Shown here: positions 6,619 through 34,162 of the stretch, piece after piece
Layout: the number at the start of each line of letters is the position of its first letter
Position numbering within the stretch: the first letter of the stretch is position 1
Source: a virus
Taxonomy: Duplodnaviria > Heunggongvirae > Uroviricota > Caudoviricetes
Reading direction: 5' to 3' (one strand)
DNA length: 39,359 bases
IMG/VR virus record: IMGVR_UViG_2563366943_000021
The notes under the pieces: model-generated
Told to the model about the DNA's origin: nothing
The model's database searches: none
The model's input: only the letters and a program-made list of their open reading frames with translations
Made by a program: the position numbers and the translations under genes

Positions 6619-6633
6619 TTACCTTTCGGGTAA
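6619..6633. promoter_or_regulatory. Operator site TTACC-TTTCG-GGTAA
   Basis: Perfect 5+5 inverted repeat with 5-bp spacer; intergenic, upstream of LexA box and small antirepressor-domain gene. Confidence 0.6.
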
Positions 6634-6670
6634 TTTGCAAAACGTGCTGGATAGCAAACAAATTATTTGT

Positions 6671-6690
6671 TACTGTATAAACATACAGTT
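6671..6690 (+). promoter_or_regulatory. LexA (SOS) box
   Basis: TACTGTATAAACATACAGTT matches CTGT-N8-ACAG with AT-rich spacer; 20 bp upstream of ORF start at 6710. Confidence 0.65.
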
Positions 6691-6709
6691 ATTGCATGGA
6701 GAAGATAAG

Positions 6710-6967
6710 ATGCAGCAGTATCACTATCCACTGGAAGACGGATTTACCGAAAGGATTCACACGCCGGGAGGCGTCAGGTCACTGGTGGAGGGATCGCACT
6801 TGATGAAATTACTCCGGGATCTCGATAAGGATGGATTTAATGTCGATGGCCCACTTGCCGAACTGACTGCACTGATTAACTACGTCACCAGCTCACAGAT
6901 GTCTATGCAGGATCTGCAAACACATCTCGACTATTGTGCCGAACAATTACGAAAACAAACCAGATAA
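6710..6967 (+). CDS. Small protein paralogous to the C-terminal domain of the antirepressor; candidate SOS-induced antirepressor
   Basis: 85 aa from ATG at 6710 with RBS GGAGAAG; aligns with C-terminus of the 7283-7993 product (HTPGGV/HSPSGV ... AELT); upstream part of the tracked ORF overlaps the operator and LexA box. Confidence 0.55.
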   Translation: MQQYHYPLEDGFTERIHTPGGVRSLVEGSHLMKLLRDLDKDGFNVDGPLAELTALINYVTSSQMSMQDLQTHLDYCAEQLRKQTR

Positions 6968-6970
6968 GGT

Positions 6971-6999
6971 TTGCAATTACCAAATGGAGTGCTTATATT
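6971..6999 (+). promoter_or_regulatory. Sigma70-like promoter (-35 TTGCAA, 17 bp, -10 TATATT) abutting operator
   Basis: Hexamers read directly; the TTACC half-site starts at the last base of the -10. Confidence 0.5.
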
Positions 7000-7013
7000 T
7001 ACCTTTGCGGTAA
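6999..7013. promoter_or_regulatory. Operator site TTACC-TTTGC-GGTAA
   Basis: Perfect inverted repeat; overlaps predicted transcription start of the ant leader. Confidence 0.6.
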
Positions 7014-7103
7014 ATTTACATCGCACTCCTCTTGTGCCATAGTAATCGGGCACTGGCAAAATCCAGTGCCGGGATTGGCGTCCCGAGTTACTAAGTGGCG
7101 CAT

Positions 7104-7127
7104 ACCACGCCAGACGTGGTTTTTTTA
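7104..7127 (+). terminator. Rho-independent terminator or attenuator in the ant leader
   Basis: Stem ACCACG / CGTGGT, loop CCAGA, followed by 7 T; about 100 nt downstream of the promoter and 155 nt upstream of ant. Confidence 0.45.
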
Positions 7128-7282
7128 TGCGTTAAGCACAGCTATATCCGAATTATGGTGGGCTGGGCAGGGGTCCGAAAGGACGCCGGTACCACTTAGG
7201 CCGGTACGCCAACCTTGTCCAGTTCACCACCAGTAATTGGCGTTGCGGTGGTGATTAAAATCACTAAGTGGAGATAACCACC

Positions 7283-7993
7283 ATGGCTAATGCTCAAACT
7301 GCCATCTTCAAATTTGAATCTGTAAACCCTATCCGTTCCATCATTATCGATGGCCAACCATGGTTTGTAGCCCAAGACGTTTGTAGTGCGCTGCGTATCC
7401 AAAACGTCACCCAAGCACTTGAAAAACTGGATGATGATGAAAGGTCTATGTTCAACATAGGGCATGAACATCGTGCAATTTTTGACAGCCGAGTAAAAGA
7501 GATCAACATCATCTCCGAGTCAGGCCTCTACACACTGATCCTCCGCTGCCGCGACGCAGTGACACCAGGCACTATCCCCTACCGCTTTCGTAAATGGGTT
7601 ACAGGTGAGGTTCTTCCTCAGATCCGCCGCACCGGAAGCTACATTAAAAACTCGCTCCCGCAGGAAGAACGCATAAAGATGGTTGCCGACCAGGTAGCCA
7701 ACGCCACGGCGTCAGCAGTAATGCAGGCGATGAAGATAGAGAACAAAACCTACAGCGCCCCACTGAAGCCCGGCTACCGCAGCCTGATTCACTCGCCGTC
7801 TGGTGTTCTCGGCCTGACGGAGAACTCACTGCTGATGAATTTGCTGAACCAGTTGCAGGAAGACGGGCACGATGTATCGGGCGCGGCGGCGGAGCTGACC
7901 ACCATGTTCTGCTACATCGTTGGTGTGAGCAAATGCCTGCGTGATATCCAGACGCACGCGGAGTACATCAACGACAAGGCAGGATTCTTCTGA
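7283..7993 (+). CDS. Antirepressor (Bro-N / AntA-like N-terminal domain)
   Basis: N-terminal IFKFE...DGQPWFVAQDVCSAL matches Bro-N/AntA signature; start set at ATG 7283 with RBS GGAG (tracked start is GTG 7268). Confidence 0.7.
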   Translation: MANAQTAIFKFESVNPIRSIIIDGQPWFVAQDVCSALRIQNVTQALEKLDDDERSMFNIGHEHRAIFDSRVKEINIISESGLYTLILRCRDAVTPGTIPYRFRKWVTGEVLPQIRRTGSYIKNSLPQEERIKMVADQVANATASAVMQAMKIENKTYSAPLKPGYRSLIHSPSGVLGLTENSLLMNLLNQLQEDGHDVSGAAAELTTMFCYIVGVSKCLRDIQTHAEYINDKAGFF

Positions 7994-8038
7994 CAGAACG
8001 GCGGCACAGGGATGTGCCTTTAAATAATTCTGTACAGA

Positions 8039-8067
8039 TTGCAGACTGGGGGTGAATAGCGTACTAT
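8039..8067 (+). promoter_or_regulatory. Sigma70-like promoter (-35 TTGCAG, 17 bp, -10 TACTAT) abutting operator
   Basis: Same geometry as promoter at 6971-6999. Confidence 0.5.
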
Positions 8068-8081
8068 TACCTTAAAGGTAA
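8067..8081. promoter_or_regulatory. Operator site TTACC-TTAAA-GGTAA
   Basis: Perfect inverted repeat immediately upstream of RBS AGGAGG. Confidence 0.6.
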
Positions 8082-8093
8082 AGGAGGCGCGAT

Positions 8094-8261
8094 ATGACAG
8101 CGTTGAAAAATCGTACTCAGCACAATGAACAAGCCAAGCAATGCTGGGATGTCATTGGAAAAGTTATGCTTGGCCGCGCAAGCAAAGAGCGCGACAAGGA
8201 TATGGTTTACCAGACAGGAACATCTTTCAGCGACTTCAAGGCGGCATTTCGCTCCAAATAG
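8094..8261 (+). CDS. Hypothetical small protein (55 aa), first gene of a two-gene cassette
   Basis: Absent from ORF track (below 60 aa); strong RBS AGGAGG 6 nt before ATG; GC-normal; operator-controlled promoter upstream. Confidence 0.45.
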   Translation: MTALKNRTQHNEQAKQCWDVIGKVMLGRASKERDKDMVYQTGTSFSDFKAAFRSK

Positions 8262-8281
8262 AAGCACATCAGGAGTTTTCC

Positions 8282-8722
8282 TTGAAGTTTAACATTAGAA
8301 TATCTAATAGTTTTCTACATGGGGAAAGCAACACCCCTTTCGCTGTAGACGGACCTTTCCTTACTGATGATGAAATAAAAATCATACAAAGTTTTTTAGA
8401 GGATGTTGCCAATGGAAGGGCGCTTGTTGGAAAAAACAAGCCCTCGTGGGTTGATGATAACCATGATAAAATTCCCGGCTCAGACAATTATGAGCAAGAG
8501 AATTATTGGCATTATCATTGTGGGCCAACATGGTATCCAAACACATTTAAGAATTATACCATTAACTTAAATTTCAACCCTGGCGGAAGGCATTCTAATG
8601 AATGCATTCATTATGCAAAAAATGATAATGAAATTGTCATTGTTGGATTTTCAAGAGAACACATACCTTTCCTTTCATCAGATGGAAACAACAATCCGCT
8701 TTTTAATGATGAAGAAGAATAG
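8282..8722 (+). CDS. Hypothetical AT-rich protein (about 146 aa), second gene of cassette
   Basis: AT-rich relative to neighbours; putative TTG start with RBS AGGAG 6 nt upstream, in frame with tracked ORF 8141-8722; no family recognised. Confidence 0.45.
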   Translation: MKFNIRISNSFLHGESNTPFAVDGPFLTDDEIKIIQSFLEDVANGRALVGKNKPSWVDDNHDKIPGSDNYEQENYWHYHCGPTWYPNTFKNYTINLNFNPGGRHSNECIHYAKNDNEIVIVGFSREHIPFLSSDGNNNPLFNDEEE

Positions 8723-8743
8723 CCCGCGCTGCGGGCTTTTTTG
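8721..8743 (+). terminator. Rho-independent terminator after the cassette
   Basis: Stem AGCCCGC / GCGGGCT, loop GCT, then 6 T. Confidence 0.6.
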
Positions 8744-8814
8744 TGGACGAAACAAAAGTCAGTGCTACACTCATTGACGCCACATTGAGGTGGCTTATAG
8801 ATGGAAATTTCACA

Positions 8815-8976
8815 ATGAAAAAAGCATTTGCTGCACTGTTCGTTTTGTTGTCTCTGGTAGCTTCAACTCAGGCCTTTGCCGGTCGTTGTCAGCACGACAG
8901 CGACACTGCTGCTGACGGCTCCCGCTGCGGTGGGTGTTCTGCGGATTCCCGCCCGGGTGGCGGTGGCATTCGTTAA
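8815..8976 (+). CDS. Putative small secreted Cys-containing peptide (53 aa precursor)
   Basis: Internal ATG of tracked ORF gives MKKAFAALFVLLSLVASTQAFA signal peptide then 31 residues with 4 Cys and Gly-rich tail; weak RBS. Confidence 0.3.
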   Translation: MKKAFAALFVLLSLVASTQAFAGRCQHDSDTAADGSRCGGCSADSRPGGGGIR

Positions 8977-8998
8977 AAACAAGGCCGCGAAAGCGGCC
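8973..8998 (-). terminator. Rho-independent terminator for the minus-strand lipoprotein gene
   Basis: Stem GGCCGC / GCGGCC, loop GAAA; T-run on minus strand; directly downstream of lipoprotein stop. Confidence 0.55.
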
Positions 8999-8999
8999 T

Positions 9000-9011
9000 G
9001 TGACATGTCAC
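9000..9011. repeat. 12-bp perfect palindrome GTGACATGTCAC (copy 1 of 3)
   Basis: Identical 12-mer also at 26720-26731 and 28984-28995; all at gene ends. Confidence 0.7.
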
Positions 9012-9388
9012 GCAACGCAATTATTACCGCGCCATGTAACATTTTTAATAATCTTATCAGCACCAAACTCAACGTAAACAGAGCAACTGAAATGGAGTGT
9101 ATAACCGCCATCAGTTGTTGCGTATGTGTTTGAATATATAGTATTACCAATTAGATTAGACGTAGTATTATACGTTGTGGTTTGTGGTACGTTATAACTA
9201 CCAGAGCTTGAGTAAACATACACTCTGTTTCCATCTGGAGATGTAAGCTCTCCCTGAGGATACCCCCACTGCTGAACCATTGCGTCTATACTCTGCCCGC
9301 GCCACGTAAGCATATTTCTTTCAAACTGTGCAGCTGACTGGCATCCAACGAGAAGCATAAATCCAAAAATCAAAAATACTTTTCTCAT
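9008..9388 (-). CDS. Lipoprotein (126 aa), prophage moron
   Basis: Start moved to internal ATG (MRKVFLIFGFMLLVGC) giving signal peptide plus lipobox LVGC; low GC; own terminator. Confidence 0.55.
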   Translation of the reverse strand: MRKVFLIFGFMLLVGCQSAAQFERNMLTWRGQSIDAMVQQWGYPQGELTSPDGNRVYVYSSSGSYNVPQTTTYNTTSNLIGNTIYSNTYATTDGGYTLHFSCSVYVEFGADKIIKNVTWRGNNCVA

Positions 9389-9607
9389 AATTACCCCTAT
9401 CATGGAAAAACAGCACCAATCCACAAATTAACTAGTTATTTTATTATTCTTCCGAACAATACAATTCCGAATACTACAAAGCCGAACCATGCCGCTGCAC
9501 GCAACAGAGATTCCAATTGAAACCCATTTTTATCAAAATGTATGAATAGCATAAAAACGCTGCACATATTAGTACAATAAAAGTTATTTGAACCATCATA
9601 TCTCCTT

Positions 9608-12082
9608 TTATTGCGGAGTGACATCCTGTGGTCGCCACCAGTATGTCTGGTTAAACTCTTTCTTCGAACGTTGCTCCATTTTACGCAAATAGCCTGGTGA
9701 AAAATACTCCTGCATCTGGTTAAAGATCATGTGATCGAGAGCCGCCTTCAAGTACCAGAGATTCGCACCAGGCATCAAACCTTTCCCCAGCTTCACCAGA
9801 TCACCACCAGTCTGCTCACTCTTCCCTTCCACAGCATTTAACGGTATGCCCTGAGCAATCTTCACTACGTCATCAACCAGACCAGCTACCGGGCCAAGCA
9901 TCGACGCCAGCGCGCCGCTTCCGTACCTAGTGTGATCTGACAATAAAAAGTCACCGTAAAGGCCAAGACCACCACCTTTCAGTAGAGCACCAAGCCAGAA
10001 TTTTGCGGCATCTTCTCCTGTCATCTCTCGAGGATTACGACCAGACGCAAGGTCGTTAAGTTGCTGCGACAAAGCGCCAAGAATGGTCGTACTGGCAATA
10101 AACGTCGCAATATATGCCGCACGCCCACCAGCAGACGGCATACCCATAGCGCGTGACCAGTGACGCATAACAACCGAGATAGGGAACGATTTAAACAGGA
10201 AAACACTTCTCGTTAATTCACCTTTCCATGTTCCACGCTGAATACCAGAACCGGTTATCAGTTGCTCACGTGCTCCCGGTGTAATAACAGCCATATCAAC
10301 TTCTTCAGTTACGGCACCGAGCAGTTTACGCATTGCCTCAAATTTCACGCGTTCAGGCTCACCAAGATGTTTAACTGCTGAATCAGGGATACGCATAATG
10401 CTTTCCGGTGTCAGCATCGTATTATTACCGTTCCCCCAGTCCTCCTGTTTCGCCAGCTTCCATACGCTCCAGTCTGTGTCAGTAATCCCTTTGCTTTTCA
10501 GGATACGAAAATCAGAGTCATCGAGGCTACGAAGGTCTGGTGTCCGTGACACTACTTCTCCCAGGCTTCCCATCATGGTTACGCCATAGGCGCGCTTGTG
10601 CGCATCTGACCATGCTGTAAGCCCACTGGCACGCATTACCGCCGTTGCCGCCCAACGAGACACTGACGGCCCCATATTATCCATCGCCCAGCGGTTAACG
10701 CTGCCAAGTAGAGATTCCATCGCCAGACCAGCGCGGCGCGCCCGCGCAAGTTCTGTACGGTTCGTTGGGTCCATAGCTTCAAGCTGGTTGCGGAATAACT
10801 GGTTCATTGGAAGGTTGGTAACCTTCGCAGACAGATACATGGTTCCAAGATCAGAGAACGATGACAGCAACGCGGATCCGAGTCTGCTGGCAACCAGCCA
10901 GTTGCGGATATTGTCAGACCATCGCGCGATGTGCGGATTCGCTACAGGCTGTGTCTTTCCGGAAATAAAGTTGTACAGATTCTCTGTGTTGTTCGCCAGC
11001 CGCTCGACTTTACCGGTTTTACTCGGGTTAGCTGTTGCCGTTTCTGCCTTCACCTGATCAAGAAGAGAGCGGAAAACATGATCGGGGTTTGGGCCATATG
11101 TTTCCACCAGTGCAATATCTTTACTGATACCTTCCAGGTGACCGACCATGATTTCCCATAGAGAGCGATCGCCATAAAGTTGCTGATATTGCAGATAGGA
11201 ATCTGCATCTTTGAAATGTATCTGTCGTGATGCATTACCACGGTTAGCACGTGCGCCGGAAATTCGCATTCCGGTATCAGTAAGCTTATTCAGCCCACCA
11301 GTAGCGATCGTGTTATAAGCCTCTCCAAGAAATGAAGACAACTCGGCATCGTTCATCAGTTGTCCATCGGCTCGGATATAATATTTGCGATCCAGCTTAC
11401 CTATAACATCGCTAACCCACTTATCCTTTGATACTGCCCCAACCTTTTCCATAGAATGATGTTGAGGGATCCCCCAGTTTTCGAGATAGCCAATGTCCCC
11501 ACCAGCATCATTAAACCGGCGGCGCAGCAGCTCTGTAACTTCTCTCCACGCCTTAGCACCGTTTCTTGCTTTAGCATTGCCAGTATTTTGCCCCCGCATT
11601 TCATATACCAGGTCACGTACGCCCGCTTCATCTTCAAACAGACCAAAAAAGCGAGGATCAACTGCTTCGAATGCCTCCTGCAATTGACTCAATGCATAAT
11701 CACGGGTGGCTTTTGTTCTGGATTCAACAGAGAGGAAATTAGATTTACCGTCTGCATTAAAAGCTATAGTACGGTTAAGAGCGCCAAGTTTCCCATCAGC
11801 CCCTTGATAGCTATTGATAAATTTATCCAATCTCTGACGCGCGGCTATAGTGAGAGCCACACGACGTTTCTTTAATGCCGCTTCTCGCTGTAATTCTTCA
11901 GATGCCAATTGTGCTGCTCGATATAGCCGCTCTGATTCGGAAAGTTGTCGCCACGACATAGGGTCATCACGAGCAATGGAGCGCATATTTCGATAAATGC
12001 GGTCTTCAATGTTCTGTATTTCTCGCGCCGTTAACATGCGCTGCGCCGCCTGCTGAACCGCTTGTATACATTCCTGTCTCAT
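9608..12082 (-). CDS. Internal virion / DNA-ejection protein (824 aa)
   Basis: Large protein in the podovirus structural block between tail tubular genes and tailspike; C-terminal hydrophobic segments; by position analogous to T7 internal core proteins. Confidence 0.6.
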   Translation of the reverse strand: MRQECIQAVQQAAQRMLTAREIQNIEDRIYRNMRSIARDDPMSWRQLSESERLYRAAQLASEELQREAALKKRRVALTIAARQRLDKFINSYQGADGKLGALNRTIAFNADGKSNFLSVESRTKATRDYALSQLQEAFEAVDPRFFGLFEDEAGVRDLVYEMRGQNTGNAKARNGAKAWREVTELLRRRFNDAGGDIGYLENWGIPQHHSMEKVGAVSKDKWVSDVIGKLDRKYYIRADGQLMNDAELSSFLGEAYNTIATGGLNKLTDTGMRISGARANRGNASRQIHFKDADSYLQYQQLYGDRSLWEIMVGHLEGISKDIALVETYGPNPDHVFRSLLDQVKAETATANPSKTGKVERLANNTENLYNFISGKTQPVANPHIARWSDNIRNWLVASRLGSALLSSFSDLGTMYLSAKVTNLPMNQLFRNQLEAMDPTNRTELARARRAGLAMESLLGSVNRWAMDNMGPSVSRWAATAVMRASGLTAWSDAHKRAYGVTMMGSLGEVVSRTPDLRSLDDSDFRILKSKGITDTDWSVWKLAKQEDWGNGNNTMLTPESIMRIPDSAVKHLGEPERVKFEAMRKLLGAVTEEVDMAVITPGAREQLITGSGIQRGTWKGELTRSVFLFKSFPISVVMRHWSRAMGMPSAGGRAAYIATFIASTTILGALSQQLNDLASGRNPREMTGEDAAKFWLGALLKGGGLGLYGDFLLSDHTRYGSGALASMLGPVAGLVDDVVKIAQGIPLNAVEGKSEQTGGDLVKLGKGLMPGANLWYLKAALDHMIFNQMQEYFSPGYLRKMEQRSKKEFNQTYWWRPQDVTPQ

Positions 12083-12087
12083 TTAAT

Positions 12088-16400: not shown

Positions 16401-16412
16401 CTTATTATCCCC

Positions 16413-19887: not shown

Positions 19888-20495
19888 CAGGACAACCTCG
19901 CAATGGTAAACTCGTCAACCGGTGGCTGTGGTTCCTGTGATTCATTCTGGCTATGCGAGCCAGCACTAAGAATCACGCGATTGTACATATTGAGGGCAAA
20001 CGTACCGAGGTCTGCATTCCCAGTCAGCGCCATGTTAATAGCTGCCGCAAGACGCCAGGCCAGCGCCTCCATAAAAATGGCATCAAACATGTTCACATCT
20101 GTAACGCGAGAGACATACTTGAGCCATGCCTGAGGCTGGTCTGTGTAGATCAACTTTCCTGTTCCGTTGGTGTCTGCACCAACTTCGTACTGAACGCGCA
20201 TTGCTGCTGTTGGATTGCGTACACCAGGAAGCATAATTTCAGTAATGCGCAGACAATCTGACGGGTACTGGTACGCATATTCCCAGTCAGGCGGTGGATT
20301 GCTCGTATCTGCAAGCGCCACGCGTTTGGTAGCAAAGTTCCAGTCAAAATCAGAAAGCACAGCATCACGGCAGGCCTCAAAGTGCAGCGAACATTCCCCC
20401 GCTTCCTTGCTGGCTTCCGTCAGGCTGTTAATGCTGCGGCTGTTGCCAATATTGGACAGCGCACGATTACAGATCTCTACTACAGAGGACATCAC
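19887..20495 (-). CDS. Tail tubular protein A-like (adaptor), T7 gp11-like
   Basis: 202 aa; position between head genes and tubular B; weak recalled similarity. Confidence 0.5.
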   Translation of the reverse strand: MMSSVVEICNRALSNIGNSRSINSLTEASKEAGECSLHFEACRDAVLSDFDWNFATKRVALADTSNPPPDWEYAYQYPSDCLRITEIMLPGVRNPTAAMRVQYEVGADTNGTGKLIYTDQPQAWLKYVSRVTDVNMFDAIFMEALAWRLAAAINMALTGNADLGTFALNMYNRVILSAGSHSQNESQEPQPPVDEFTIARLS

Positions 20496-25593: not shown

Positions 25594-25683
25594 ATCAATG
25601 ACTCCGTACGCAATTAAATTATTACCAATTTAACCACATATGATTTATTTATCGTAGGTAGTTGACATTTAACGCACAAATTA

Positions 25684-25698
25684 TTACCTTTCAGGTAA
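25684..25698. promoter_or_regulatory. Operator site TTACC-TTTCA-GGTAA, with TTGACA hexamer 17 bp upstream
   Basis: Perfect inverted repeat at the upstream edge of the plus-strand tRNA moron. Confidence 0.55.
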
Positions 25699-26020: not shown

Positions 26021-26097
26021 GTGGCATTAGCTCAGCTGGACAGAGCAACCGCCTTCTAAGCGGTTGGTCGCAGGTTCGAATCCTGCATGCCACGCCA
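26021..26097 (+). tRNA. tRNA-Arg (anticodon UCU)
   Basis: Hand-folded cloverleaf: 7-bp acceptor stem GTGGCAT/ATGCCAC, D-arm GCTC..GAGC, anticodon stem ACCGC/GCGGT with loop CTTCTAA (anticodon TCT), T-arm GCAGGTTCGAATCCTGC, discriminator G, encoded CCA. Confidence 0.8.
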
Positions 26098-26183: not shown

Positions 26184-26260
26184 CAGCAGGACGCCATTGC
26201 GATGACTTCATGCTGTAAACCAGTACAGCCACGGAAGGCATAACTCATTGCTTCCAGTTC

Positions 26261-26284
26261 GCCCGGGTCGCCGGGCATTTTTTT
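26261..26284 (+). terminator. Second rho-independent terminator, 12 nt upstream of the 139-aa ORF
   Basis: Stem GCCCGG / CCGGGC followed by 7 T. Confidence 0.5.
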
Positions 26285-26295
26285 AAGGTGAGATC

Positions 26296-26715
26296 ATGAA
26301 AACAATTGATATGTTGGCTAAGTATCTAAATGAATGGCCATTAAAATATTCTCGTATCGTTCAGGCTGAAGACTGCGTTTTTTATGGCGTTTTTGCTGGT
26401 AATGAAATGCATTACGAAGTAATTCAGAGTGAGGGACTGGCCGGGTTAACTCTTAGCGAAGACCATGGTACTAGCGTTACGTTCCATGACTGGATAACAG
26501 CACAACGTTCTGAAATGGAAAAAGGCGATGTGTTTGATATTTCTCGCGCTGTTTACGCTAAAGCAAAAAGTGATAATGATTACATGAGCGAACACTTATA
26601 CAACATGAAGTTACAATGCCTGCATGCGGCGCTTATTCAGAATGGGCACTTCGATAAAACAAGTGCCATCAATATTGCGGAAGCCATCAACGCTGGATTT
26701 GATGCCATTAAGTAA
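26296..26715 (+). CDS. Hypothetical cytoplasmic protein (139 aa), moron antisense to the late operon
   Basis: RBS AAGGTGAG; no TM or signal peptide; no family recognised. Confidence 0.55.
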   Translation: MKTIDMLAKYLNEWPLKYSRIVQAEDCVFYGVFAGNEMHYEVIQSEGLAGLTLSEDHGTSVTFHDWITAQRSEMEKGDVFDISRAVYAKAKSDNDYMSEHLYNMKLQCLHAALIQNGHFDKTSAINIAEAINAGFDAIK

Positions 26716-26719
26716 CACC

Positions 26720-26731: not shown

Positions 26732-26735
26732 AAAC

Positions 26736-26762
26736 AGCCAGCCGATGAGCTGGCTTTGTTTT
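26736..26762 (+). terminator. Rho-independent terminator closing the plus-strand moron
   Basis: Stem AGCCAGC / GCTGGCT, loop CGATGA, then TTGTTTT. Confidence 0.6.
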
Positions 26763-26805
26763 ATCCTCATCAGAGGATATCAACGACATTATCCCCACTA
26801 GCGGA

Positions 26806-28281: not shown

Positions 28282-28874
28282 TGATTGCCATCCTGACGTT
28301 CTTTCAGTCTCTTCCTGGCTGCTGCTATGCGATCAGCAATTGTCACATTCACATTAACATCCAGGCGCTCTTTGAACGCGTTGACGTCGACGTGCTTACC
28401 GATAAGCTCGAGGTTCTTCACCTTGTCAGGCCATTTAATTTTTTTGAGGATTGTCTCTATCGAATCCTCGTTCATGTTCATGATGGTCGATGACAGATCA
28501 AAGCCGCTAAGCGTAGTGCGCCAGATTTTCGGCCACTCGCGGATTGGCTTAAGGCTCCCATCGTCGTTGAGGATATCAATCACGTCCATCTGGTCGATCT
28601 CCACCAGGCGCATGAGAACGTAATCAGCACTGACGCGCATTCGTTTGTTGCGCTCCTCCATCAACTCGGCAATGCGTTTTTGAATGCGTTCATCGCGCAT
28701 CATGACACTGGCTTTAACTGCCGCTGTATTTGGGGAGAATCCTGCGTTAATCGCTGCATGAGTCTGGTTTTCAGGCGTTTTGATGTATGACTGGCAATAA
28801 GCCTCCTGCATTGCTGTTAGTGGCTTAAATTGCGTTGATTTGCGTTTATAGGTTTTAGGTTCAGCAGGCATCAT
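28278..28874 (-). CDS. Terminase small subunit
   Basis: HTH-like segment NQTHAAINAGFSPNTAAVKAS typical of small terminases; immediately upstream of large subunit; start set at internal ATG 28874 (tracked 28970 start has no RBS). Confidence 0.65.
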   Translation of the reverse strand: MMPAEPKTYKRKSTQFKPLTAMQEAYCQSYIKTPENQTHAAINAGFSPNTAAVKASVMMRDERIQKRIAELMEERNKRMRVSADYVLMRLVEIDQMDVIDILNDDGSLKPIREWPKIWRTTLSGFDLSSTIMNMNEDSIETILKKIKWPDKVKNLELIGKHVDVNAFKERLDVNVNVTIADRIAAARKRLKERQDGNQ

Positions 28875-28983
28875 AACCACCGTGGTAATAGTTACCGTTG
28901 TGGTAATAGTACCATGCAAAATAAAGCCGCCATAGTTGGCGGCAGTATTCAAAACCATCAAATTCATCATGCATAATCTACTC

Positions 28984-28995
28984 GTGACATGTCAC
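28984..28995. repeat. 12-bp perfect palindrome GTGACATGTCAC (copy 3 of 3)
   Basis: Overlaps stop codon of the 112-aa gene, upstream of terminase small subunit. Confidence 0.7.
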
Positions 28996-29330
28996 ACTAT
29001 TAATTTCGTTTCATGCCAGCCTTTAGTCACCCAGCATTGCGAGTCACCATTACACGGGCATGAATTAACGGGAACTCTCTCGCCGCACTTACCGCAAAGT
29101 TTTCTGCTGATCGATTTTATACGCCCGCGCACACGTGCATCATCCTGGCGGATCAGCAGCGCGATGTACTCGGCCATTTCATAGGGATCGCGACCAGGGC
29201 GCCGGGCGGCGCAGTTCCGCGCCAGCATTTCCTGCTCCTGCTTATCCAGCACCAGTTCAATTTTGCGCTCACCGGCGGCGGACTGCCGAGCGCGCTGCGC
29301 GGCTTTGCGTTCTGCGGGGGATTTAGCCAT
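28992..29330 (-). CDS. Hypothetical protein with C-terminal Cys cluster (putative zinc ribbon), 112 aa
   Basis: Basic N-terminus, CGKCG...CPCNGDSQC cluster; last early gene before terminase. Confidence 0.5.
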   Translation of the reverse strand: MAKSPAERKAAQRARQSAAGERKIELVLDKQEQEMLARNCAARRPGRDPYEMAEYIALLIRQDDARVRGRIKSISRKLCGKCGERVPVNSCPCNGDSQCWVTKGWHETKLIV

Positions 29331-29673
29331 TCTGATTTTCCTGCATCATGAGAAATACAATCATGGCGGCTCGGAGTGGATTATTCGCATGAAAGCAAAT
29401 GTTCTCGGTATTAAAAACAGCTGACCACTCACCGCGAGATTGGTGGCAGGTTAGACTGATTTTATTATCAACAATAATAGGCCATGCATCCGATGGATTA
29501 TTGCAGTAGTCAGGTAAAGGGTTTAATGGCTCAAAAGTTGTATCAGTATTTCCGTAATACCATTTGTTGGTGTTATTCCCTGATGTTTCCGGTTTACACG
29601 CCCAAAGGCCTTTAAAAATTATGTCTCCTACCATTCTGTTAATTTCAAAATCACTTAACTGTGAATAGTCCAT
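29323..29673 (-). CDS. Hypothetical protein (116 aa)
   Basis: Start set at internal ATG 29673 with RBS GGAGGTGA and TGATG overlap with upstream gene. Confidence 0.5.
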   Translation of the reverse strand: MDYSQLSDFEINRMVGDIIFKGLWACKPETSGNNTNKWYYGNTDTTFEPLNPLPDYCNNPSDAWPIIVDNKISLTCHQSRGEWSAVFNTENICFHANNPLRAAMIVFLMMQENQNG

Positions 29674-30578: not shown

Positions 30579-30639
30579 CTTTACCCTCGCTTATCCACAT
30601 AACTTATTGATTACATTGATAACTAAAAAGATCGTCGAT

Positions 30640-30984
30640 TCAGAACTCTTCGATGTTCCAGCCGCCACCTGCTTTCTTTGGTTTAACCGTTACCCCGATG
30701 ATTCGGAACGGATACTGATCTGCGGCGACTTTGGTTTTCACCCTGGCGTCGTCGGTCCAGAAACCTTTCACTTCGTGCAGTTCCATCTCGCCGGTGGCGA
30801 GCATCACAGCGAAATCTGGCGTATAAAACGTGTTATCAGCTAACCGCAGCTTGATACCCTCGAACCGATACCAGGCGATTTCCCCTGCACGTTTACGCTG
30901 CTCAAGGTGCTGGCAATACGCAGATTCTGTTTTGTTCATCTGGCCTGTTTTGAGTCGACCAAGAGCCTGTATCTGTTTTCTCAT
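30640..30984 (-). CDS. Putative PD-(D/E)xK nuclease-fold protein (DUF1064-like), 114 aa
   Basis: Motif YTPDF ... ELHEVKG consistent with a D...E.K nuclease core; operator-controlled promoter directly upstream. Confidence 0.45.
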   Translation of the reverse strand: MRKQIQALGRLKTGQMNKTESAYCQHLEQRKRAGEIAWYRFEGIKLRLADNTFYTPDFAVMLATGEMELHEVKGFWTDDARVKTKVAADQYPFRIIGVTVKPKKAGGGWNIEEF

Positions 30985-30987
30985 GAT

Positions 30988-31002
30988 TTACCCCTGAGGT
31001 AA
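30988..31002. promoter_or_regulatory. Operator site TTACC-CCTGA-GGTAA
   Basis: Perfect inverted repeat immediately upstream of the 30984 start, overlapping its RBS. Confidence 0.6.
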
Positions 31003-31030
31003 TTAAAAACCACATAAGACACTAAATCAA
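31002..31030 (-). promoter_or_regulatory. Minus-strand promoter (-35 TTGATT, 17 bp, -10 TTTAAT) abutting operator
   Basis: Read on the reverse complement; same geometry as plus-strand promoters. Confidence 0.45.
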
Positions 31031-31049
31031 TAGATTTTAGAATATTTTA

Positions 31050-31064
31050 TTACCCAGTAGGTAA
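31050..31064. promoter_or_regulatory. Operator site TTACC-CAGTA-GGTAA
   Basis: Perfect inverted repeat, 62 bp from the operator at 30988. Confidence 0.55.
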
Positions 31065-31101
31065 TCATCGAGACGTAAAAAAATGCGCTATCGCGCTGGT
31101 A

Positions 31102-31884
31102 TTACTTGATAAATCCTGCCGCCTTTCCCCGCCTGTATTCCTCCATCAGCCACTGCGCCGGTGTTATTCCCCCAAGGGTGGCGGCGTTAGGCATGCACCC
31201 GAAACTTCGCCCTGGTGGATGGTAAACGTCTCTCCCTGTGTCCGGAGGTGTACTCATGGGTTCTGGCTTTGCCTGTATGCTGATCACCGGATCGGGTATC
31301 TGCTGTCCGGAAGCCACCTTTTTCGCCCAATCATCGAGCAGCCTGCGCGCGTGTTTCTCAACCTCAATCTCGCTAAGCTGGCGCTGATACATTGCACGGC
31401 GGGTATCACATACGACCCAGTACATAACCGGATGTCGCCACGGGAATCTTTCGGGACCACCAGGATATAAACTTTTTTCCTTGCTGTACCGGTGAAACTC
31501 CGCCATCACATCGTCAATGGTGACGCCAAGAACCATCTTGCTGTCTTTGCACCACTTGATGAATTGCCCAGGCGACGGCCAGAACGGAGATTCACTGGCG
31601 CGGGCGTGGCGCATACCAGCGTTAACCTGTTCCATTGTTGTGATCCCATTCTCCAGAAACGCAAGCATCCATTGTTTTCGAAATTCGTTTAGCTTTCCTT
31701 GCTCGCTGATAGCAGCGATGCTGCCTGGAAATGCAGCCTGTAACTGGACAAACATTTCGTTGAAAATTCTTGCAACCTGCTCCTTCTTTGCCCTTTCATC
31801 GTCAGCAGAAGCAACCGCCGTCGAGTGGTCATGCCCACCACGAAAGCGATCGTACTCATTAAGAAGTTCTGGAGTTGATTTCAT
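31102..31884 (-). CDS. Replication protein, lambda P-like helicase loader
   Basis: WMLAFLENGITTMEQVNAGMRHARASESPFWPSPGQFIKWC closely matches lambda P (recalled); start set at internal ATG 31884. Confidence 0.8.
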   Translation of the reverse strand: MKSTPELLNEYDRFRGGHDHSTAVASADDERAKKEQVARIFNEMFVQLQAAFPGSIAAISEQGKLNEFRKQWMLAFLENGITTMEQVNAGMRHARASESPFWPSPGQFIKWCKDSKMVLGVTIDDVMAEFHRYSKEKSLYPGGPERFPWRHPVMYWVVCDTRRAMYQRQLSEIEVEKHARRLLDDWAKKVASGQQIPDPVISIQAKPEPMSTPPDTGRDVYHPPGRSFGCMPNAATLGGITPAQWLMEEYRRGKAAGFIK

Positions 31885-32692
31885 CCCACACCTCATCTAT
31901 CCAGTCAGTGTTATGCCAGTCAAGGCTCTTTCTGACTTCACCTGATTTCTGTCTACAGAACTGGATGCGCCTTGCCAGCTTCTGCTCCCACTGTGCCTGA
32001 TGGTATGCCTTACCCTCAGCCATCCAGTAAATTCTGAACTCTGCAAGTTCCTGTGCCGTTGGCAGACTGTCCAGGTAGATTCCCTGCAATGAGCTTTTCC
32101 GAAGAAAGTCATCTGATGGCTGCCATTGTTCATGCATGACAAATTTACCTAATTGCCCTGGCCCACCAGGAGGAACAAAGTTATTCATCACGGCGTTGTT
32201 TGCGCCGGGGTCATGAGGAACAGAATCCCCGGTTTTTGTCCTGCTCTCCCTCTCTTGGTTAAATGACTGGTTATATGACTGGTTCTGGATCCCGTTTTTG
32301 GGATCATTCAACATCCCGTTTTTGGGATCATTCAACATCCCGTTTTTGGGTATATTCCCGTTTTCGGTAACATTACCGTTTTCGGGTTCATTGCCCCCCT
32401 CCCGGTTGCCTTTAATGTTCCCGTTTTTGGTTATATTAAGAGAGAAAACCCGCACTCTTTTTGTCGCTCCCTTTCTCTCTCCGGTATCTGAAATAAGCCC
32501 CATTTTCATGAGCGATATAAGCCCGGCCTGCACGGTTTTTTTATTCAGGCAAGTGTCTTTAACGAGGCGTTCTATGCTGGGGTAGCAGAGGTTATATTCA
32601 TCGGCTCTGTCAGCCATCGAGAGCAGTATGAGCTTTAATGATGAGCTACCTGGATCTGTCTCCCAGGCCCAATCTGTTGCATGTCTGCTCAT
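31859..32692 (-). CDS. Replication initiator, lambda O-like, with N-terminal wHTH and internal repeat region
   Basis: N-terminal wHTH-like segment; central NG-rich tandem repeats that coincide with DNA iterons; immediately upstream of P-like gene. Confidence 0.65.
   Translation of the reverse strand: MSRHATDWAWETDPGSSSLKLILLSMADRADEYNLCYPSIERLVKDTCLNKKTVQAGLISLMKMGLISDTGERKGATKRVRVFSLNITKNGNIKGNREGGNEPENGNVTENGNIPKNGMLNDPKNGMLNDPKNGIQNQSYNQSFNQERESRTKTGDSVPHDPGANNAVMNNFVPPGGPGQLGKFVMHEQWQPSDDFLRKSSLQGIYLDSLPTAQELAEFRIYWMAEGKAYHQAQWEQKLARRIQFCRQKSGEVRKSLDWHNTDWIDEVWDEINSRTS
32289..32432. repeat. Iteron array (putative origin of replication) inside the initiator gene
   Basis: CCCGTTTTTGGG three times at 24-bp period (32291, 32315, 32339) plus degenerate copies near 32357, 32376 and 32420. 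Confidence 0.6.
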
Positions 32693-32707
32693 GATTAATC
32701 TCCGCTA

Positions 32708-32908
32708 TCAGCTTGAGTGTTGTGGGGAGGAATTAATCATGATCTGCTTAATCTCTGCCCTGATGCGACGGTTTGATTCCATGGTGCACTCAACACAGTG
32801 TCCGTTGTAAACCCAGCGTTCACTGTCATGTCCATGCTTACATGGTTTTCCGGTGTAGTAGCGTTTAAGTCCGCGCTTTGCGGCATCAATACGTGTAATG
32901 ATTTCCAT
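32708..32908 (-). CDS. Small putative zinc-binding protein
   Basis: Cys/His cluster CKHGH...HCVEC; start uncertain (candidates 32908, 32944, 32971), 32908 chosen for RBS AGGG. Confidence 0.4.
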   Translation of the reverse strand: MEIITRIDAAKRGLKRYYTGKPCKHGHDSERWVYNGHCVECTMESNRRIRAEIKQIMINSSPQHSS

Positions 32909-32988
32909 GGTAAGCCCTGCTATTAGTATTGGGGTTACGGTCATTTTGTGCTGACACAAAAAAAAGATCAACCAGATTTGGTTTTTTA

Positions 32989-33003
32989 TTACCTTTGAGG
33001 TAC
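32989..33003. promoter_or_regulatory. Operator site TTACC-TTTGA-GGTAC (9 of 10 half-site bases)
   Basis: Between cro-like terminator and the next minus-strand gene. Confidence 0.5.
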
Positions 33004-33017
33004 GAATAGATATGAAA

Positions 33018-33036
33018 AGACCGCCGGGTGGCGGTC
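33018..33036 (-). terminator. Rho-independent terminator after cro-like gene
   Basis: Stem GACCGCC / GGCGGTC, loop GGGT; followed by TTTTCAT on the minus strand. Confidence 0.5.
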
Positions 33037-33058
33037 TACAGAGGGTTGTAGCTGGATA

Positions 33059-33289
33059 TCATGAGTAGAAGAAGTATGCCAGTTCTGCTTTTGAGCGCAG
33101 CCATTGTCTTGTTTTACAGGCTTTAAAAAGCCCATTCATCAATACCTTACCTGGCATTTTGCGCTTACCTGTTAAGTGAGTCTGGATATAGTGACTCGTC
33201 GTTCCGGCTTCCTGTGCGAAGGCTTCACGCTCATCCGGAGTAAGTGCAAGCCAGTGCTTTTTGAAATCGAAATGTCCGTTATCGCTCAT
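33059..33289 (-). CDS. Cro-like small HTH DNA-binding protein
   Basis: 76 aa; divergent from repressor gene across the triple-operator region; HTH-like segment AGTTSHYIQTHLTGKRKMP. Confidence 0.5.
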   Translation of the reverse strand: MSDNGHFDFKKHWLALTPDEREAFAQEAGTTSHYIQTHLTGKRKMPGKVLMNGLFKACKTRQWLRSKAELAYFFYS

Positions 33290-33321
33290 AGCTATTGCCT
33301 GATATTTATTTCAGATAATAA

Positions 33322-33350
33322 ATATTCACCCATAAGGTAACAAAAATCAA
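33322..33350 (-). promoter_or_regulatory. Putative cro-side promoter (-35 TTGATT, 17 bp, -10 GAATAT) overlapping operator O1
   Basis: Read on reverse complement. Confidence 0.4.
33326..33340. promoter_or_regulatory. Immunity operator O1 TCACC-CATAA-GGTAA (9 of 10)
   Basis: First of three sites in the divergent intergenic region. Confidence 0.55.
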
Positions 33351-33356
33351 GGATAG

Positions 33357-33371
33357 TTACCTATGAGGTGC
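33357..33371. promoter_or_regulatory. Immunity operator O2 TTACC-TATGA-GGTGC (8 of 10)
   Basis: Degenerate site, 31 bp from O1 and 17 bp from O3 centre to centre. Confidence 0.45.
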
Positions 33372-33373
33372 AT

Positions 33374-33388
33374 TTACCTGTTGGGTAA
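33374..33388. promoter_or_regulatory. Immunity operator O3 TTACC-TGTTG-GGTAA
   Basis: Perfect inverted repeat nearest the repressor gene. Confidence 0.6.
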
Positions 33389-33443
33389 TATTGCTTTAAA
33401 TTGAATCATCTACTGATTCATATATGAGGCGATTTTCCAGAAA

Positions 33444-34028
33444 ATGAAAAGTATCCAGGACGTCCGCAGGCAAAATCTCAACGACTTGATCGACCGTGAA
33501 TTCAATGGTGTTCAGACGCGGATGGCAGAAAAACTTGGAACTCAGGCAAATCTGGTAAACCGCTGGGCTCTTGGCAAGAAGGTTATCGGCGACCAGGTTG
33601 CACGAAAAATTGAAGCTGCCGCCAATAAACCCCGTAACTGGCTTGATATCGATCGCTCGCTTTCTCAGGAAGGTTTTCAGCCTGTCGGCCCAAGCGACAT
33701 TGGTCAGCTGGCGGCTCACAACCTGGAACGCTGGATGAGCGAAAGCCGCGACCTTTCAACGCAGGGAAAACTTCACCGCGCATCCGGCGTCGCCCAGGTG
33801 ACAATCAGTCGCCTGTTAAACAATGAGGTCAGCGTTTCCATTTCCACCCTGGAGAATGTTGCATCCGCATTCGGGCGTCACGGCTATGAATTACTGATTC
33901 ACCCGCACGACCCTGCGACCATCAACTATGACCGCTCGCGCTACGCATTGTTACCCGAAACCGAGAAAGCAAAGATCGAAAGTTACATTGAATTTGTCAT
34001 CAACCAGAACGAAAAAAACAAACAATAA
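33444..34028 (+). CDS. Prophage repressor candidate with two HTH domains and no S24 peptidase domain
   Basis: 194 aa; HTH-like segments (AEKLGTQANLVNRWALG and ASGVAQVTISRLLNNE); no Ser-Lys autocleavage motif; divergent from cro-like gene; own terminator. Confidence 0.6.
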   Translation: MKSIQDVRRQNLNDLIDREFNGVQTRMAEKLGTQANLVNRWALGKKVIGDQVARKIEAAANKPRNWLDIDRSLSQEGFQPVGPSDIGQLAAHNLERWMSESRDLSTQGKLHRASGVAQVTISRLLNNEVSVSISTLENVASAFGRHGYELLIHPHDPATINYDRSRYALLPETEKAKIESYIEFVINQNEKNKQ

Positions 34029-34050
34029 AATCATACTTTTCAGTAAGTAA

Positions 34051-34075
34051 GCCGCCTTCTGGCGGCTTTTTTATT
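34051..34075 (+). terminator. Rho-independent terminator after repressor gene
   Basis: Stem GCCGCC / GGCGGC, loop TTCT, then 6 T. Confidence 0.65.
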
Positions 34076-34085
34076 GCCTATACTA

Positions 34086-34100
34086 TTACCTAATGGGTAA
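34086..34100. promoter_or_regulatory. Operator site TTACC-TAATG-GGTAA
   Basis: Perfect inverted repeat preceded by TACTAT. Confidence 0.55.
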
Positions 34101-34119
34101 TTTTTTTAACTCATATCTA

Positions 34120-34148
34120 TTGACATCAAACCAAATACGCATAATTAT
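34120..34148 (+). promoter_or_regulatory. Early rightward promoter (-35 TTGACA, 17 bp, -10 AATTAT) abutting operator
   Basis: Consensus -35; operator begins at the last base of the -10. Confidence 0.55.
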
Positions 34149-34162
34149 TACCTCAACGGTAA
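34148..34162. promoter_or_regulatory. Operator site TTACC-TCAAC-GGTAA
   Basis: Perfect inverted repeat at the predicted transcription start of the recombination operon. Confidence 0.6.

What the first reader, a model, noticed from the sequence alone, without database searches (positions are those of the whole stretch)
6619..34162. Prophage-wide operator regulon: TTACC-N5-GGTAA at 12 intergenic sites with fixed promoter geometry
A 15-bp inverted repeat occurs at 6619, 6999, 8067, 25684, 30988, 31050, 32989, 33326, 33357, 33374, 34086 and 34148. Nine copies are perfect 5+5 half-sites; chance expectation in 39 kb is about 0.04. All are intergenic. At five sites (6999, 8067, 30988, 34148, and O1 for cro) a -35 hexamer TTGNNN, a 17-bp spacer and a -10 hexamer are positioned so that the operator starts at the last base of the -10. 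The sites govern the immunity switch, the recombination operon, a nuclease gene, the tRNA moron and the antirepressor/cassette island. That is far more sites than the two operator clusters of lambda and is reminiscent of the many dispersed repressor sites of mycobacteriophage L5.
Basis: seen in the sequence. Interest (0 to 1): 0.75.

Follow-up and report, generated by a model that had tools for sequence, protein, structure and literature searches.

The report
Known repressor operator set of phiV10/epsilon15-like prophage
The repeated TTACC-N5-GGTAA palindrome is real and is the operator of this E. coli prophage's repressor, found at almost every promoter, but the same sites are already annotated as repressor-binding sites in the related Salmonella phage epsilon15, so it is an ordinary member of a described system.

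Summary
TTACC-N5-GGTAA occurs 10 times perfectly (0.02 expected). There are three 1-mismatch copies and one 2-mismatch copy, making 14 sites. All are intergenic.

The window is host yfgH-yfgI plus a phiV10-like Uetakevirus prophage. GenBank AY150271.2 (epsilon15) already annotates seven dispersed ATTACC-N5-GGTAAT sites as repressor-binding. The sites sit at orthologous positions in seven genomes from four host genera. Half-sites are invariant and N5 is free.

The 194-aa repressor is a homologue of SPC32H Rep (PDB 5D50) and has no S24 domain. Its sequence is identical to the ZX5 repressor, which was shown to block the lytic cycle. A small Ant (88% identical to SPC32H Ant) sits behind a LexA box.

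Operators overlap the -10/+1, or the spacer at the cro promoter. Two promoters are bracketed by operator pairs exactly 62 bp apart, which fits tetramer binding.

The L5 analogy is superficial; the circuit logic of P1 C1/immI is closer. Verdict: real, correctly interpreted, already known. Interest is low.

The parts
6619..6633 (.). Operator (perfect) in the divergent tailspike/ant intergenic region. It ends 1 bp before the putative ant -35 (TTGCAA, 6635-6640) and lies 30 bp upstream of the tailspike late box.
   Evidence: orthologous to the annotated epsilon15 repressor site 19895-19911
6673..6688 (+). LexA box CTGTATAAACATACAG between the putative ant promoter and the ant start codon.
   Evidence: conserved in all 7 genomes
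6710..6967 (+). ant: small antirepressor (85 aa), 88% identical to SPC32H Ant.
6971..7013 (+). Promoter TTGCAA-17-TATATT (6971-6999) with operator 6999-7013 starting on the last base of the -10. It drives the isrK/C4 RNA and Bro-N cassette.
7037..7234 (+). c4-a1b1 targets, isrK-like sRNA and C4 antisense RNA (a P1 immI-like cassette) downstream of the 6999 operator.
7268..7993 (+). Bro-N protein whose C-terminal ~80 aa are 42% identical to the small Ant; a second Ant-domain protein.
8039..8081 (+). Promoter TTGCAG-17-TACTAT (8039-8067) with operator 8067-8081, followed by an SD and a 55-aa gene at 8094. The unit is shared only with phiv142-3 among the genomes compared.
25662..25698 (+). Promoter TTGACA-17-TACCTT whose -10 is the left operator half-site; operator at 25684-25698. 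It reads toward tRNA-Arg(UCU) at 26021-26097. On the other strand the operator lies 41 bp upstream of the gp3/portal late box.
   Evidence: orthologous to epsilon15 site 2931-2947
28874..28906 (-). Operator pair upstream of terS: 28892-28906 perfect and 28874-28888 with 1 mismatch, 18 bp apart. It is preceded by an extended -10-like TGGTACTAT (28914-28906) and a terminator (28943-28926). The terS ATG is at 28871.
   Evidence: orthologous to epsilon15 site 12-27
30988..31064 (-). Nuclease-gene module. The distal operator is at 31050-31064. The promoter is -35 TTGATT (31030-31025), a 17-bp spacer and -10 TTTAAT (31007-31002). The proximal operator at 30988-31002 contains the SD and ends 3 nt before the DUF1064 ATG (30984). 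The two operators are 62 bp apart.
   Evidence: orthologous to the epsilon15 site 35906-35922 plus the unannotated 35969
32989..33003 (-). Operator with 1 mismatch (GTACC half-site, conserved as such) directly after the cro terminator (33037-33018) and upstream of the replication genes.
33059..33289 (-). cro-like 76-aa HTH protein.
   Evidence: phrog_35 transcriptional repressor, E 5.6e-13
33322..33423 (.). Immunity switch. The cro-proximal operator is at 33326-33340 (conserved TCACC variant), inside the spacer of P_R (-35 33350-33345, -10 33327-33322, minus strand). The weak middle site is at 33357-33371. The rep-proximal perfect operator at 33374-33388 ends 6 bp before the putative P_RM (TTTAAA 33395-33400, 17-bp spacer, TCATAT 33418-33423).
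33444..34028 (+). rep: 194-aa repressor with two HTH domains plus a C-terminal domain and no S24 peptidase. It is a homologue of SPC32H Rep (PDB 5D50/5D4Z).
34049..34162 (+). Early-left module. The rep terminator is at 34049-34068. The distal operator is at 34086-34100. The promoter is P_L, TTGACA (34120-34125), 17-bp spacer, AATTAT (34143-34148). The proximal operator is at 34148-34162. The operators are 62 bp apart. The module drives the gp37-like, gp36-like, exo and recT genes.
   Evidence: orthologous to epsilon15 sites 32479/32554/32616

Best explanation
The 15-bp palindrome (extended consensus ATTACC-N5-GGTAAT) is the operator of the prophage's lysogeny repressor Rep (33444-34028). Rep is a non-cleavable, two-HTH protein homologous to SPC32H and epsilon15 Rep.

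In the lysogen, Rep occupies operators that overlap the -10/+1 region or the spacer of the sigma-70 promoters of nearly every transcription unit. These units are:
- P_R (cro and the replication genes)
- P_L (exo/recT)
- the DUF1064 nuclease gene
- terS
- the tRNA-Arg unit
- the C4-RNA/Bro-N cassette
- a small accessory gene at 8094

At P_L and at the nuclease promoter, a second operator exactly 62 bp (about 6 helical turns) upstream lets one Rep tetramer hold both sites and enclose the promoter. The rep-proximal operator, just upstream of the weak P_RM -35, probably autoregulates rep. The Cro-like protein probably uses a subset of the same sites.

Induction does not go through Rep cleavage. 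LexA inactivation de-represses the small Ant (6710-6967), which strips Rep from DNA. The Rep-controlled Bro-N/Ant-like gene could then reinforce the switch.

Shown here: the motif, its enrichment, its promoter overlap, its positional conservation and the protein homologies. Inferred: actual binding, looping, autoregulation and feedback.
For: - Enrichment: 10 perfect sites against 0.02 expected, and 13 against 0.63 at up to 1 mismatch. The PWM shows a clean gap.
- Location: all 14 sites lie in the 7.9% of the window that is intergenic.
- Prior annotation: the same motif is annotated as 'protein_bind, repressor, lysogeny' at seven dispersed sites in epsilon15 record AY150271.2.
- Positional conservation: orthologous sites and spacings (62, 17/18, 48, 337, 380, 712 bp) recur in epsilon15, phiV10, phiv142-3, SPC32H, Tyrion and BUCT711, while N5 varies.
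- Footprint-like alignments: half-sites and the -35/-10 hexamers are invariant even where the downstream gene is swapped (DUF1064 versus RuvC).
- Wider distribution: 542 perfect sites with 137 different N5 occur in 120 viral loci.
- Rep homology: Rep matches PDB 5D50 at E 4e-42 and has no S24 domain.
- Recognition helix: the N-terminal helix NL(V/I)(N/S)RW is nearly invariant across Rep proteins of 40-100% identity.
- Rep versus Cro: in one lineage the Cro-like helix changes (SHYIQTHL to AGYIAAHY) while the Rep helix and the DNA motif stay the same.
- Function: the ZX5 repressor, 100% identical to the window's Rep by tblastn, blocked the lytic cycle and cut holin transcripts by 99.97% when overexpressed (PMC9782041).
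- Oligomeric state: SPC32H Rep binds palindromic sites as a tetramer and is disassembled by Ant (as summarised in PMC9638917).
- Induction components: Ant is 88% identical to SPC32H Ant and a LexA box precedes it.
Against: - No binding or transcript data exist for this prophage. TSSs are inferred from hexamers only.
- The primary papers that may define the operators experimentally could not be read. These are Kropinski 2007, Kim & Ryu 2013 and Kim 2016.
- The operators at 6619 and 25684 do not overlap the late-gene boxes they neighbour, so direct repression of the tailspike and portal operons is not established.
- The Cro-like HTH is also highly conserved in most lineages, so sequence alone cannot fully separate the contributions of Rep and Cro.
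- A 62-bp loop is tight, and looping is inferred only from conserved phasing.
Confidence: 0.85

Rival explanations
1. The palindrome is primarily the binding site of the 76-aa Cro-like protein, or of another early regulator such as the AlpA- or PerC-like proteins, and Rep recognises something else.
For: The Cro-like protein has an HTH that is invariant in most genomes and matches a 'transcriptional repressor' PHROG. In lambda-type switches Cro and CI share operators, so some Cro binding is expected.
Against: In four viral loci the Cro-like helix differs at several positions, while the motif and the Rep helix are retained. The epsilon15 curators assigned the sites to the repressor. Overexpression of the identical Rep shuts down late transcription. 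The sites extend to units such as terS and P_L that must be silent in a lysogen, where Cro is absent.
Confidence: 0.06
2. The sites act mainly as transcription roadblocks (L5-type 'stoperators') or terminator enhancers rather than as promoter operators.
For: Four sites (34086, 31050, 32989, 28892) lie directly downstream of rho-independent terminators. rep is co-oriented with the early-left operon, so blocking read-through would be useful.
Against: The sites are perfect palindromes and so have no orientation. None lies inside a transcribed gene. The promoter-proximal partners overlap conserved -10 hexamers or the spacer. L5 stoperators are asymmetric 13-mers that are orientation-dependent (established knowledge of L5 gp71).
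Confidence: 0.06
3. The repeats are conserved module-boundary or recombination sequences, or copies of a mobile promoter cassette, with no dedicated binding protein.
For: The promoter/operator module upstream of DUF1064 is retained where the downstream gene is replaced by RuvC. This is the pattern expected at mosaic junctions.
Against: Only the two 5-bp half-sites are invariant, while flanks and N5 diverge freely (137 N5 variants). That pattern fits protein recognition, not recombinational homology. The half-site spacing of 10 bp fits an HTH dimer.
Confidence: 0.02

Closest known systems
Repressor-binding sites annotated in Salmonella phage epsilon15 (GenBank AY150271.2; Kropinski et al. 2007, Virology 369:234)
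   Same: The consensus is the same (ATTACC-N5-GGTAAT). The sites are dispersed the same way and lie at orthologous positions: upstream of terS and of gp3/portal, between ant and tailspike, in the P_L cluster and upstream of the nuclease gene. The repressor is homologous, at 42% identity.
   Different: The epsilon15 record annotates only 7 of its 15 motif copies and omits the rep-cro intergenic sites. Epsilon15 has three P_L sites (spaced 76 and 62 bp) against two here. The window adds sites at the C4/Bro-N cassette (6999) and at 8067. It lacks the lysis-cassette site, and the int site falls outside the window.
SPC32H Rep-Ant-LexA antirepression switch (Kim & Ryu 2013 J Virol; Kim et al. 2016 PNAS; PDB 5D50, 5D4Z)
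   Same: Rep is homologous over its full length (E 4e-42) and lacks an S24 domain. Ant is 88% identical and sits in the same position behind a LexA box. The same operator motif occurs at the same positions in the SPC32H genome.
   Different: Rep is only 42% identical. Which operators were tested experimentally in SPC32H could not be checked, because the papers are not held. This prophage carries an additional Bro-N/Ant-domain gene with C4 RNA.
Phage P1 C1 repressor regulon with the immI (c4-icd-ant) operon
   Same: One repressor controls many dispersed operators across the genome. One of these fronts a C4 antisense RNA and antirepressor cassette, which matches the 6999 operator followed by c4 targets, C4 RNA and the Bro-N/Ant-like gene. 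This rests on established knowledge of P1.
   Different: P1 operators are asymmetric 17-mers. C1 is unrelated in sequence to Rep. P1 is a plasmid prophage.
Mycobacteriophage L5 gp71 operator/stoperator system
   Same: A single repressor has many sites spread over the genome.
   Different: L5 sites are asymmetric 13-mers. Most lie within transcribed regions in one orientation and block elongation. Here the sites are palindromic, intergenic and overlap promoters.
Lambda CI/Cro with OL and OR
   Same: There are divergent rep and cro promoters with three graded operators, including a conserved weaker variant next to cro. Operator clusters lie on both sides of the repressor gene, 712 bp apart. Cooperative or looped binding is likely.
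   Different: Rep has no RecA-stimulated S24 autocleavage domain. There are 14 sites at eight separate positions in the window rather than six sites in two clusters. Induction is by an antirepressor.

Membership tests
Uetakevirus (epsilon15/phiV10/SPC32H) Rep-operator regulon | Repressor homologous to epsilon15 gp38 / SPC32H Rep | tested here: met
   PDB 5D50 matches at E 4e-42 over residues 1-190. tblastn gives 42% identity to epsilon15/SPC32H rep and 100% to phiV10/ZX5 rep. The alignment has 70% mean column identity with an invariant N-terminal helix.
Uetakevirus (epsilon15/phiV10/SPC32H) Rep-operator regulon | Operator consensus ATTACC-N5-GGTAAT, as annotated in AY150271.2 | tested here: met
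   The seven annotated epsilon15 protein_bind sites all read TTACC-N5-GGTAA. The window has 10 perfect and 4 near copies.
Uetakevirus (epsilon15/phiV10/SPC32H) Rep-operator regulon | Sites at orthologous intergenic positions with conserved spacings | tested here: met
   The terS pair (18 bp), gp3, ant/tailspike, P_L pair (62), rep-cro cluster and nuclease pair (62) are found in all or most of seven genomes.
Uetakevirus (epsilon15/phiV10/SPC32H) Rep-operator regulon | Small LexA-controlled antirepressor instead of repressor autocleavage | tested here: met
   Ant is 88% identical to SPC32H Ant. A LexA box lies at 6673-6688. Rep has no Peptidase_S24 domain. LexA control itself is inferred.
Uetakevirus (epsilon15/phiV10/SPC32H) Rep-operator regulon | Physical binding of Rep to the sites | not testable with these tools
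   This needs EMSA, footprinting or ChIP. The primary papers are not held.
L5-type stoperator system | Asymmetric sites, orientation-dependent, mostly inside transcription units | tested here: not met
   The sites are palindromic, all are intergenic, and they overlap promoter hexamers.
Lambda-type CI repressor switch | Repressor with a C-terminal S24 (LexA-like) autocleavage domain | tested here: not met
   Pfam finds only HTH families in Rep. The C-terminal domain matches the SPC32H Rep tetramerisation/Ant-binding domain 5D4Z.
P1 C1/immI regulon | C4 antisense RNA with a1/b1 targets upstream of an antirepressor, under a repressor-controlled promoter | tested here: met
   Rfam gives C4 at 66 bits (GA 45), isrK at 67 bits and c4-a1b1 at 44.3 bits (GA 46.7), all downstream of the 6999 operator/promoter. 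A Bro-N/Ant-domain gene follows.
P1 C1/immI regulon | C1-type repressor and asymmetric 17-bp operator ATTGCTCTAATAAATTT | tested here: not met
   Rep is an XRE-type two-HTH protein and the operator is a 15-bp palindrome. The P1 operator sequence is quoted from established knowledge.

The most novel reading that the evidence does not exclude
Three details may go beyond the known annotation and may be undescribed.

(a) Rep tetramers may cage promoters in phase-locked 62-bp micro-loops. One operator sits on the -10/+1 and one sits just behind the preceding terminator. This arrangement is conserved at two loci in every genome examined.

(b) The operator code may be frozen genus-wide. Rep proteins diverged to about 40% identity in phages of Escherichia, Salmonella, Enterobacter and Klebsiella keep one recognition helix and one half-site. 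The likely reason is that 14 or more dispersed sites would have to change together, which implies a single immunity specificity for the whole genus.

(c) A second Ant-domain protein behind a Rep operator and C4 RNA may form a positive-feedback latch on induction.
Probability: 0.3. Interest if true: 0.4.

Novelty: already known. Interest (0 to 1): 0.2.

Why it matters
The result gives a complete operator map for a very common E. coli prophage. The identical Rep is found in at least 80 viral contigs, and the phage family is used as O157 reporter phage. The map is useful for annotation, for engineering non-lysogenic derivatives and for predicting homoimmunity across Uetakeviruses. It does not reveal a new kind of regulation. 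The motif and its assignment to the repressor are already in the public record for epsilon15, and the Rep/Ant/LexA switch has been characterised in SPC32H. The testable extras are the 62-bp phasing and the genus-wide constancy of operator specificity.

Tried and rejected
- Tried to read Kropinski 2007 (DOI and PMC2698709), Kim & Ryu 2013 (PMC3807360) and Kim 2016 (PMC4983836). None is held. Whether the sites were footprinted therefore rests on secondary descriptions and on my recollection.
- A full-text search for the motif strings found nothing.
- The search for distant Rep relatives with a different recognition helix, intended as a covariation test, returned only copies 100% identical to the window's Rep. 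The motif-selected loci gave a partial substitute.
- Looked for the lysis-cassette operator seen in phiV10, epsilon15, SPC32H and Tyrion. It is absent from this window.
- The int-proximal site lies beyond the window's end.
- Rejected the pattern-scan promoter TTGTTA-17-TATTAT for P_R in favour of the invariant TTGATT -35.
- Rejected reading 28874/28892 as intragenic. The 230-aa terS ORF is an upstream extension of the conserved 198-aa protein.
- Rejected chance as an explanation.

Full report
**Observation**

TTACCNNNNNGGTAA occurs 10 times without mismatch in the 39,359-bp window. The positions are 6619, 6999, 8067, 25684, 28892, 30988, 31050, 33374, 34086 and 34148. Dinucleotide-preserving shuffles give 0.02. 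Allowing one mismatch adds 28874, 32989 and 33326, for 13 sites against 0.63 expected.

A symmetrised position weight matrix picks out exactly these 14 sites (scores 14.4-24.0), and no other window position scores above 8.

The pair at 28874/28892 was missed. With gene starts fixed by homology (terS ATG at 28871, ant ATG at 6710), all 14 sites fall in the 7.9% of the window that is non-coding.

**What the window is**

Positions 1-1071 are the E. coli chromosomal genes yfgH and yfgI. The rest is a prophage 96-98% identical to Escherichia phages phiV10, phiv142-3, PAS61 and HEMP4, in the genus Uetakevirus whose type phage is Salmonella phage epsilon15. These phages integrate at the 3' end of guaA (PMC9782041). 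The window stops exactly at the integrase start codon.

**Prior knowledge**

The epsilon15 GenBank record AY150271.2 carries seven 'protein_bind' features labelled repressor/lysogeny. Their sequences all read (A)TTACC-N5-GGTAAT. They lie upstream of terS and of gp3/portal, between gp19 and the tailspike, three between gp37 and the repressor gene, and one upstream of the RuvC-like gene. So the motif, its assignment to the repressor and its dispersal over the genome are already on record for the type phage of this genus.

The window's 194-aa protein matches the crystallised repressor of the epsilon15-like phage SPC32H (PDB 5D50, E 4e-42; 5D4Z for the C-terminal domain). It is 42% identical to the epsilon15 and SPC32H repressors and 100% identical to those of phiV10 and vB_EcoP_ZX5. 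For ZX5, overexpression of this same protein abolished free phage and reduced holin transcripts by 99.97% (PMC9782041). That paper did not define operators.

According to PMC9638917 and PMC9986798, SPC32H Rep binds palindromic DNA as a tetramer, and a tetrameric antirepressor Ant disassembles it. From memory (Kim & Ryu 2013, not readable here), ant is LexA-controlled and Rep is not cleaved.

**Comparative evidence**

I scanned six further genomes: epsilon15, phiV10, phiv142-3, SPC32H, Enterobacter phage Tyrion and Klebsiella phage BUCT711. Their repressors are 43-100% identical to the window's. Each genome has 8-11 perfect copies at the same relative positions:
- a pair 18 bp apart in front of terS
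- one site in front of gp3/portal
- a pair about 380 bp apart around ant
- a pair 62 bp apart after the rep terminator
- a cluster between rep and cro
- a 1-mismatch GTACC site after the cro terminator
- a pair 62 bp apart (63 in one case) before the DUF1064/RuvC gene

Most genomes also have conserved 1-mismatch sites before the lysis cassette and before int.

Alignments of these regions look like phylogenetic footprints. The half-sites and the promoter hexamers are invariant, while N5 and the flanks drift. The promoter/operator module persists even where the downstream gene is exchanged, DUF1064 for RuvC.

Most come from contigs of about 40 kb, and many carry two pairs roughly 3.1 kb apart, as in the window. 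Those loci contain 542 perfect sites with 137 different N5 sequences.

**Anatomy in the window**

It holds at four promoters:
- 6971-6999: TTGCAA/TATATT
- 8039-8067: TTGCAG/TACTAT
- 34120-34148: TTGACA/AATTAT, which is P_L for the exo/recT operon
- 31030-31002 on the minus strand: TTGATT/TTTAAT, for the DUF1064 gene

Other sites are arranged differently:
- At 25684 the conserved TTGACA (25662-25667) is followed after 17 bp by TACCTT, so the -10 is the operator half-site itself. This promoter points at tRNA-Arg(UCU), 26021-26097.
- At terS an extended -10-like TGGTACTAT abuts the 28892 operator.
- The geometry does not hold for cro. The invariant -35 TTGATT (33350-33345) and -10 GAATAT (33327-33322) place the 33326 operator in the spacer.
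- The rep-proximal operator 33374-33388 ends 6 bp before a weak putative P_RM (TTTAAA-17-TCATAT, 33395-33423). That position is compatible with autoregulation.

At P_L and at the nuclease promoter, the second operator lies exactly 62 bp upstream, immediately after the preceding terminator. The pair therefore brackets the whole promoter.

**Who binds**

Rep's N-terminal HTH has a nearly invariant putative recognition helix, NL(V/I)(N/S)RW. It is kept across Rep proteins ranging from 40 to 100% identity in 83 motif-bearing loci.

The Cro-like protein (phrog_35) is also well conserved. In four loci, however, its helix changes from SHYIQTHL to AGYIAAHY, while the Rep helix (NLVSRW) and the DNA motif are retained. 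This modestly favours Rep as the determinant of the TTACC specificity. Cro probably shares some sites, as in lambda.

**Induction circuit**

The ant gene (6710-6967) is 88% identical to SPC32H ant. It is preceded by a perfect LexA box at 6673-6688. Rep has no S24 domain.

Downstream of ant, the Rep-operated promoter at 6999 drives c4-a1b1 targets, an isrK-like RNA and a C4 antisense RNA. A Bro-N protein follows, and its C-terminus is 42% identical to Ant. This resembles the P1 immI operon behind a C1 operator. It suggests, by inference only, a reinforcing loop once Rep is removed.

**Comparison and verdict**

The system is a member of the epsilon15/SPC32H Rep-operator-Ant family; all testable defining features are met. 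It is not an L5-type stoperator system, because the sites are palindromic, intergenic and overlap promoters. It is not a lambda-type CI, because there is no S24 domain. In circuit logic it most resembles P1 C1/immI, but the proteins and the operator differ.

However, it is already known at the level of the phage genus. The parts I could not find documented are the full 14-site catalogue, the strict 62-bp pairing and the genus-wide constancy of specificity. These are modest refinements.

**Limits**

No binding or transcript data were available. Promoters are inferred from hexamers and conservation. The three primary papers could not be read.

Noticed in passing
window 7037-7234 (+): Three Rfam matches lie between the 6999 operator/promoter and the Bro-N gene, forming a P1 immI-like cassette: c4-a1b1 targets (44.3 bits, just below GA), isrK Hfq-binding sRNA (67 bits) and C4 antisense RNA (66 bits).
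   Followed up: partly
window 7268-7993 (+) versus 6710-6967 (+): The Bro-N protein's C-terminal ~80 residues are 42% identical to the small Ant antirepressor (same PHROG 450). The prophage therefore encodes two Ant-domain proteins, one behind a LexA box and one behind a Rep operator.
   Followed up: partly
window 3149-3159, 6567-6589, 25620-25642 (all minus strand); 28906-28914: A shared box CATAT(A/G)TGGTT precedes the lysis cassette, the tailspike and gp3/portal. In the last two it extends to CATATNTGGTT-N5-GGTAATA, which is invariant in seven genomes and contains an operator-like half-site. terS has a related CATGGTACTAT. It is probably a late-promoter element. The 112-aa regulator (28992-29330, phrog_536) encoded just upstream of terS is a candidate activator.
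   Followed up: partly
window 32256-32392: Tandem repeats lie inside the replication-initiator gene: 24 bp x 2.6 at 100% identity, then 18 bp x 3 and 12 bp x 2.4. They are probably origin iterons.
   Followed up: no
window 1-1071: The left end of the window is host chromosome (yfgH, yfgI), not prophage. The window ends at the integrase start codon, so attL and the conserved int-proximal operator (TTACCTTAAAGGTAT, about 57 bp upstream of int in phiV10) lie outside it.
   Followed up: partly
window 30985-31002 and 28872-28888 (minus strand): The promoter-proximal operators end 3 nt and 2 nt before the ATGs of DUF1064 and terS. Their downstream half-site (GGGGTAA / GGTGGTTA) therefore doubles as the Shine-Dalgarno sequence.
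   Followed up: no
window 26213-26228 and 26262-26288: A second CTGT-N8-ACAG match (possibly a chance LexA-like box) and a terminator lie between the tRNA-Arg gene and the 139-aa gene at 26296-26715 (phrog_4846).
   Followed up: no
L079, L060, L085, L110 (viral contigs): This is a divergent Uetakevirus-like lineage, with Rep 47% and Cro-like 58% identical to the window's. Its Cro-like recognition helix is altered, but it keeps TTACC-N5-GGTAA sites and the 62-bp pairs.
   Followed up: partly
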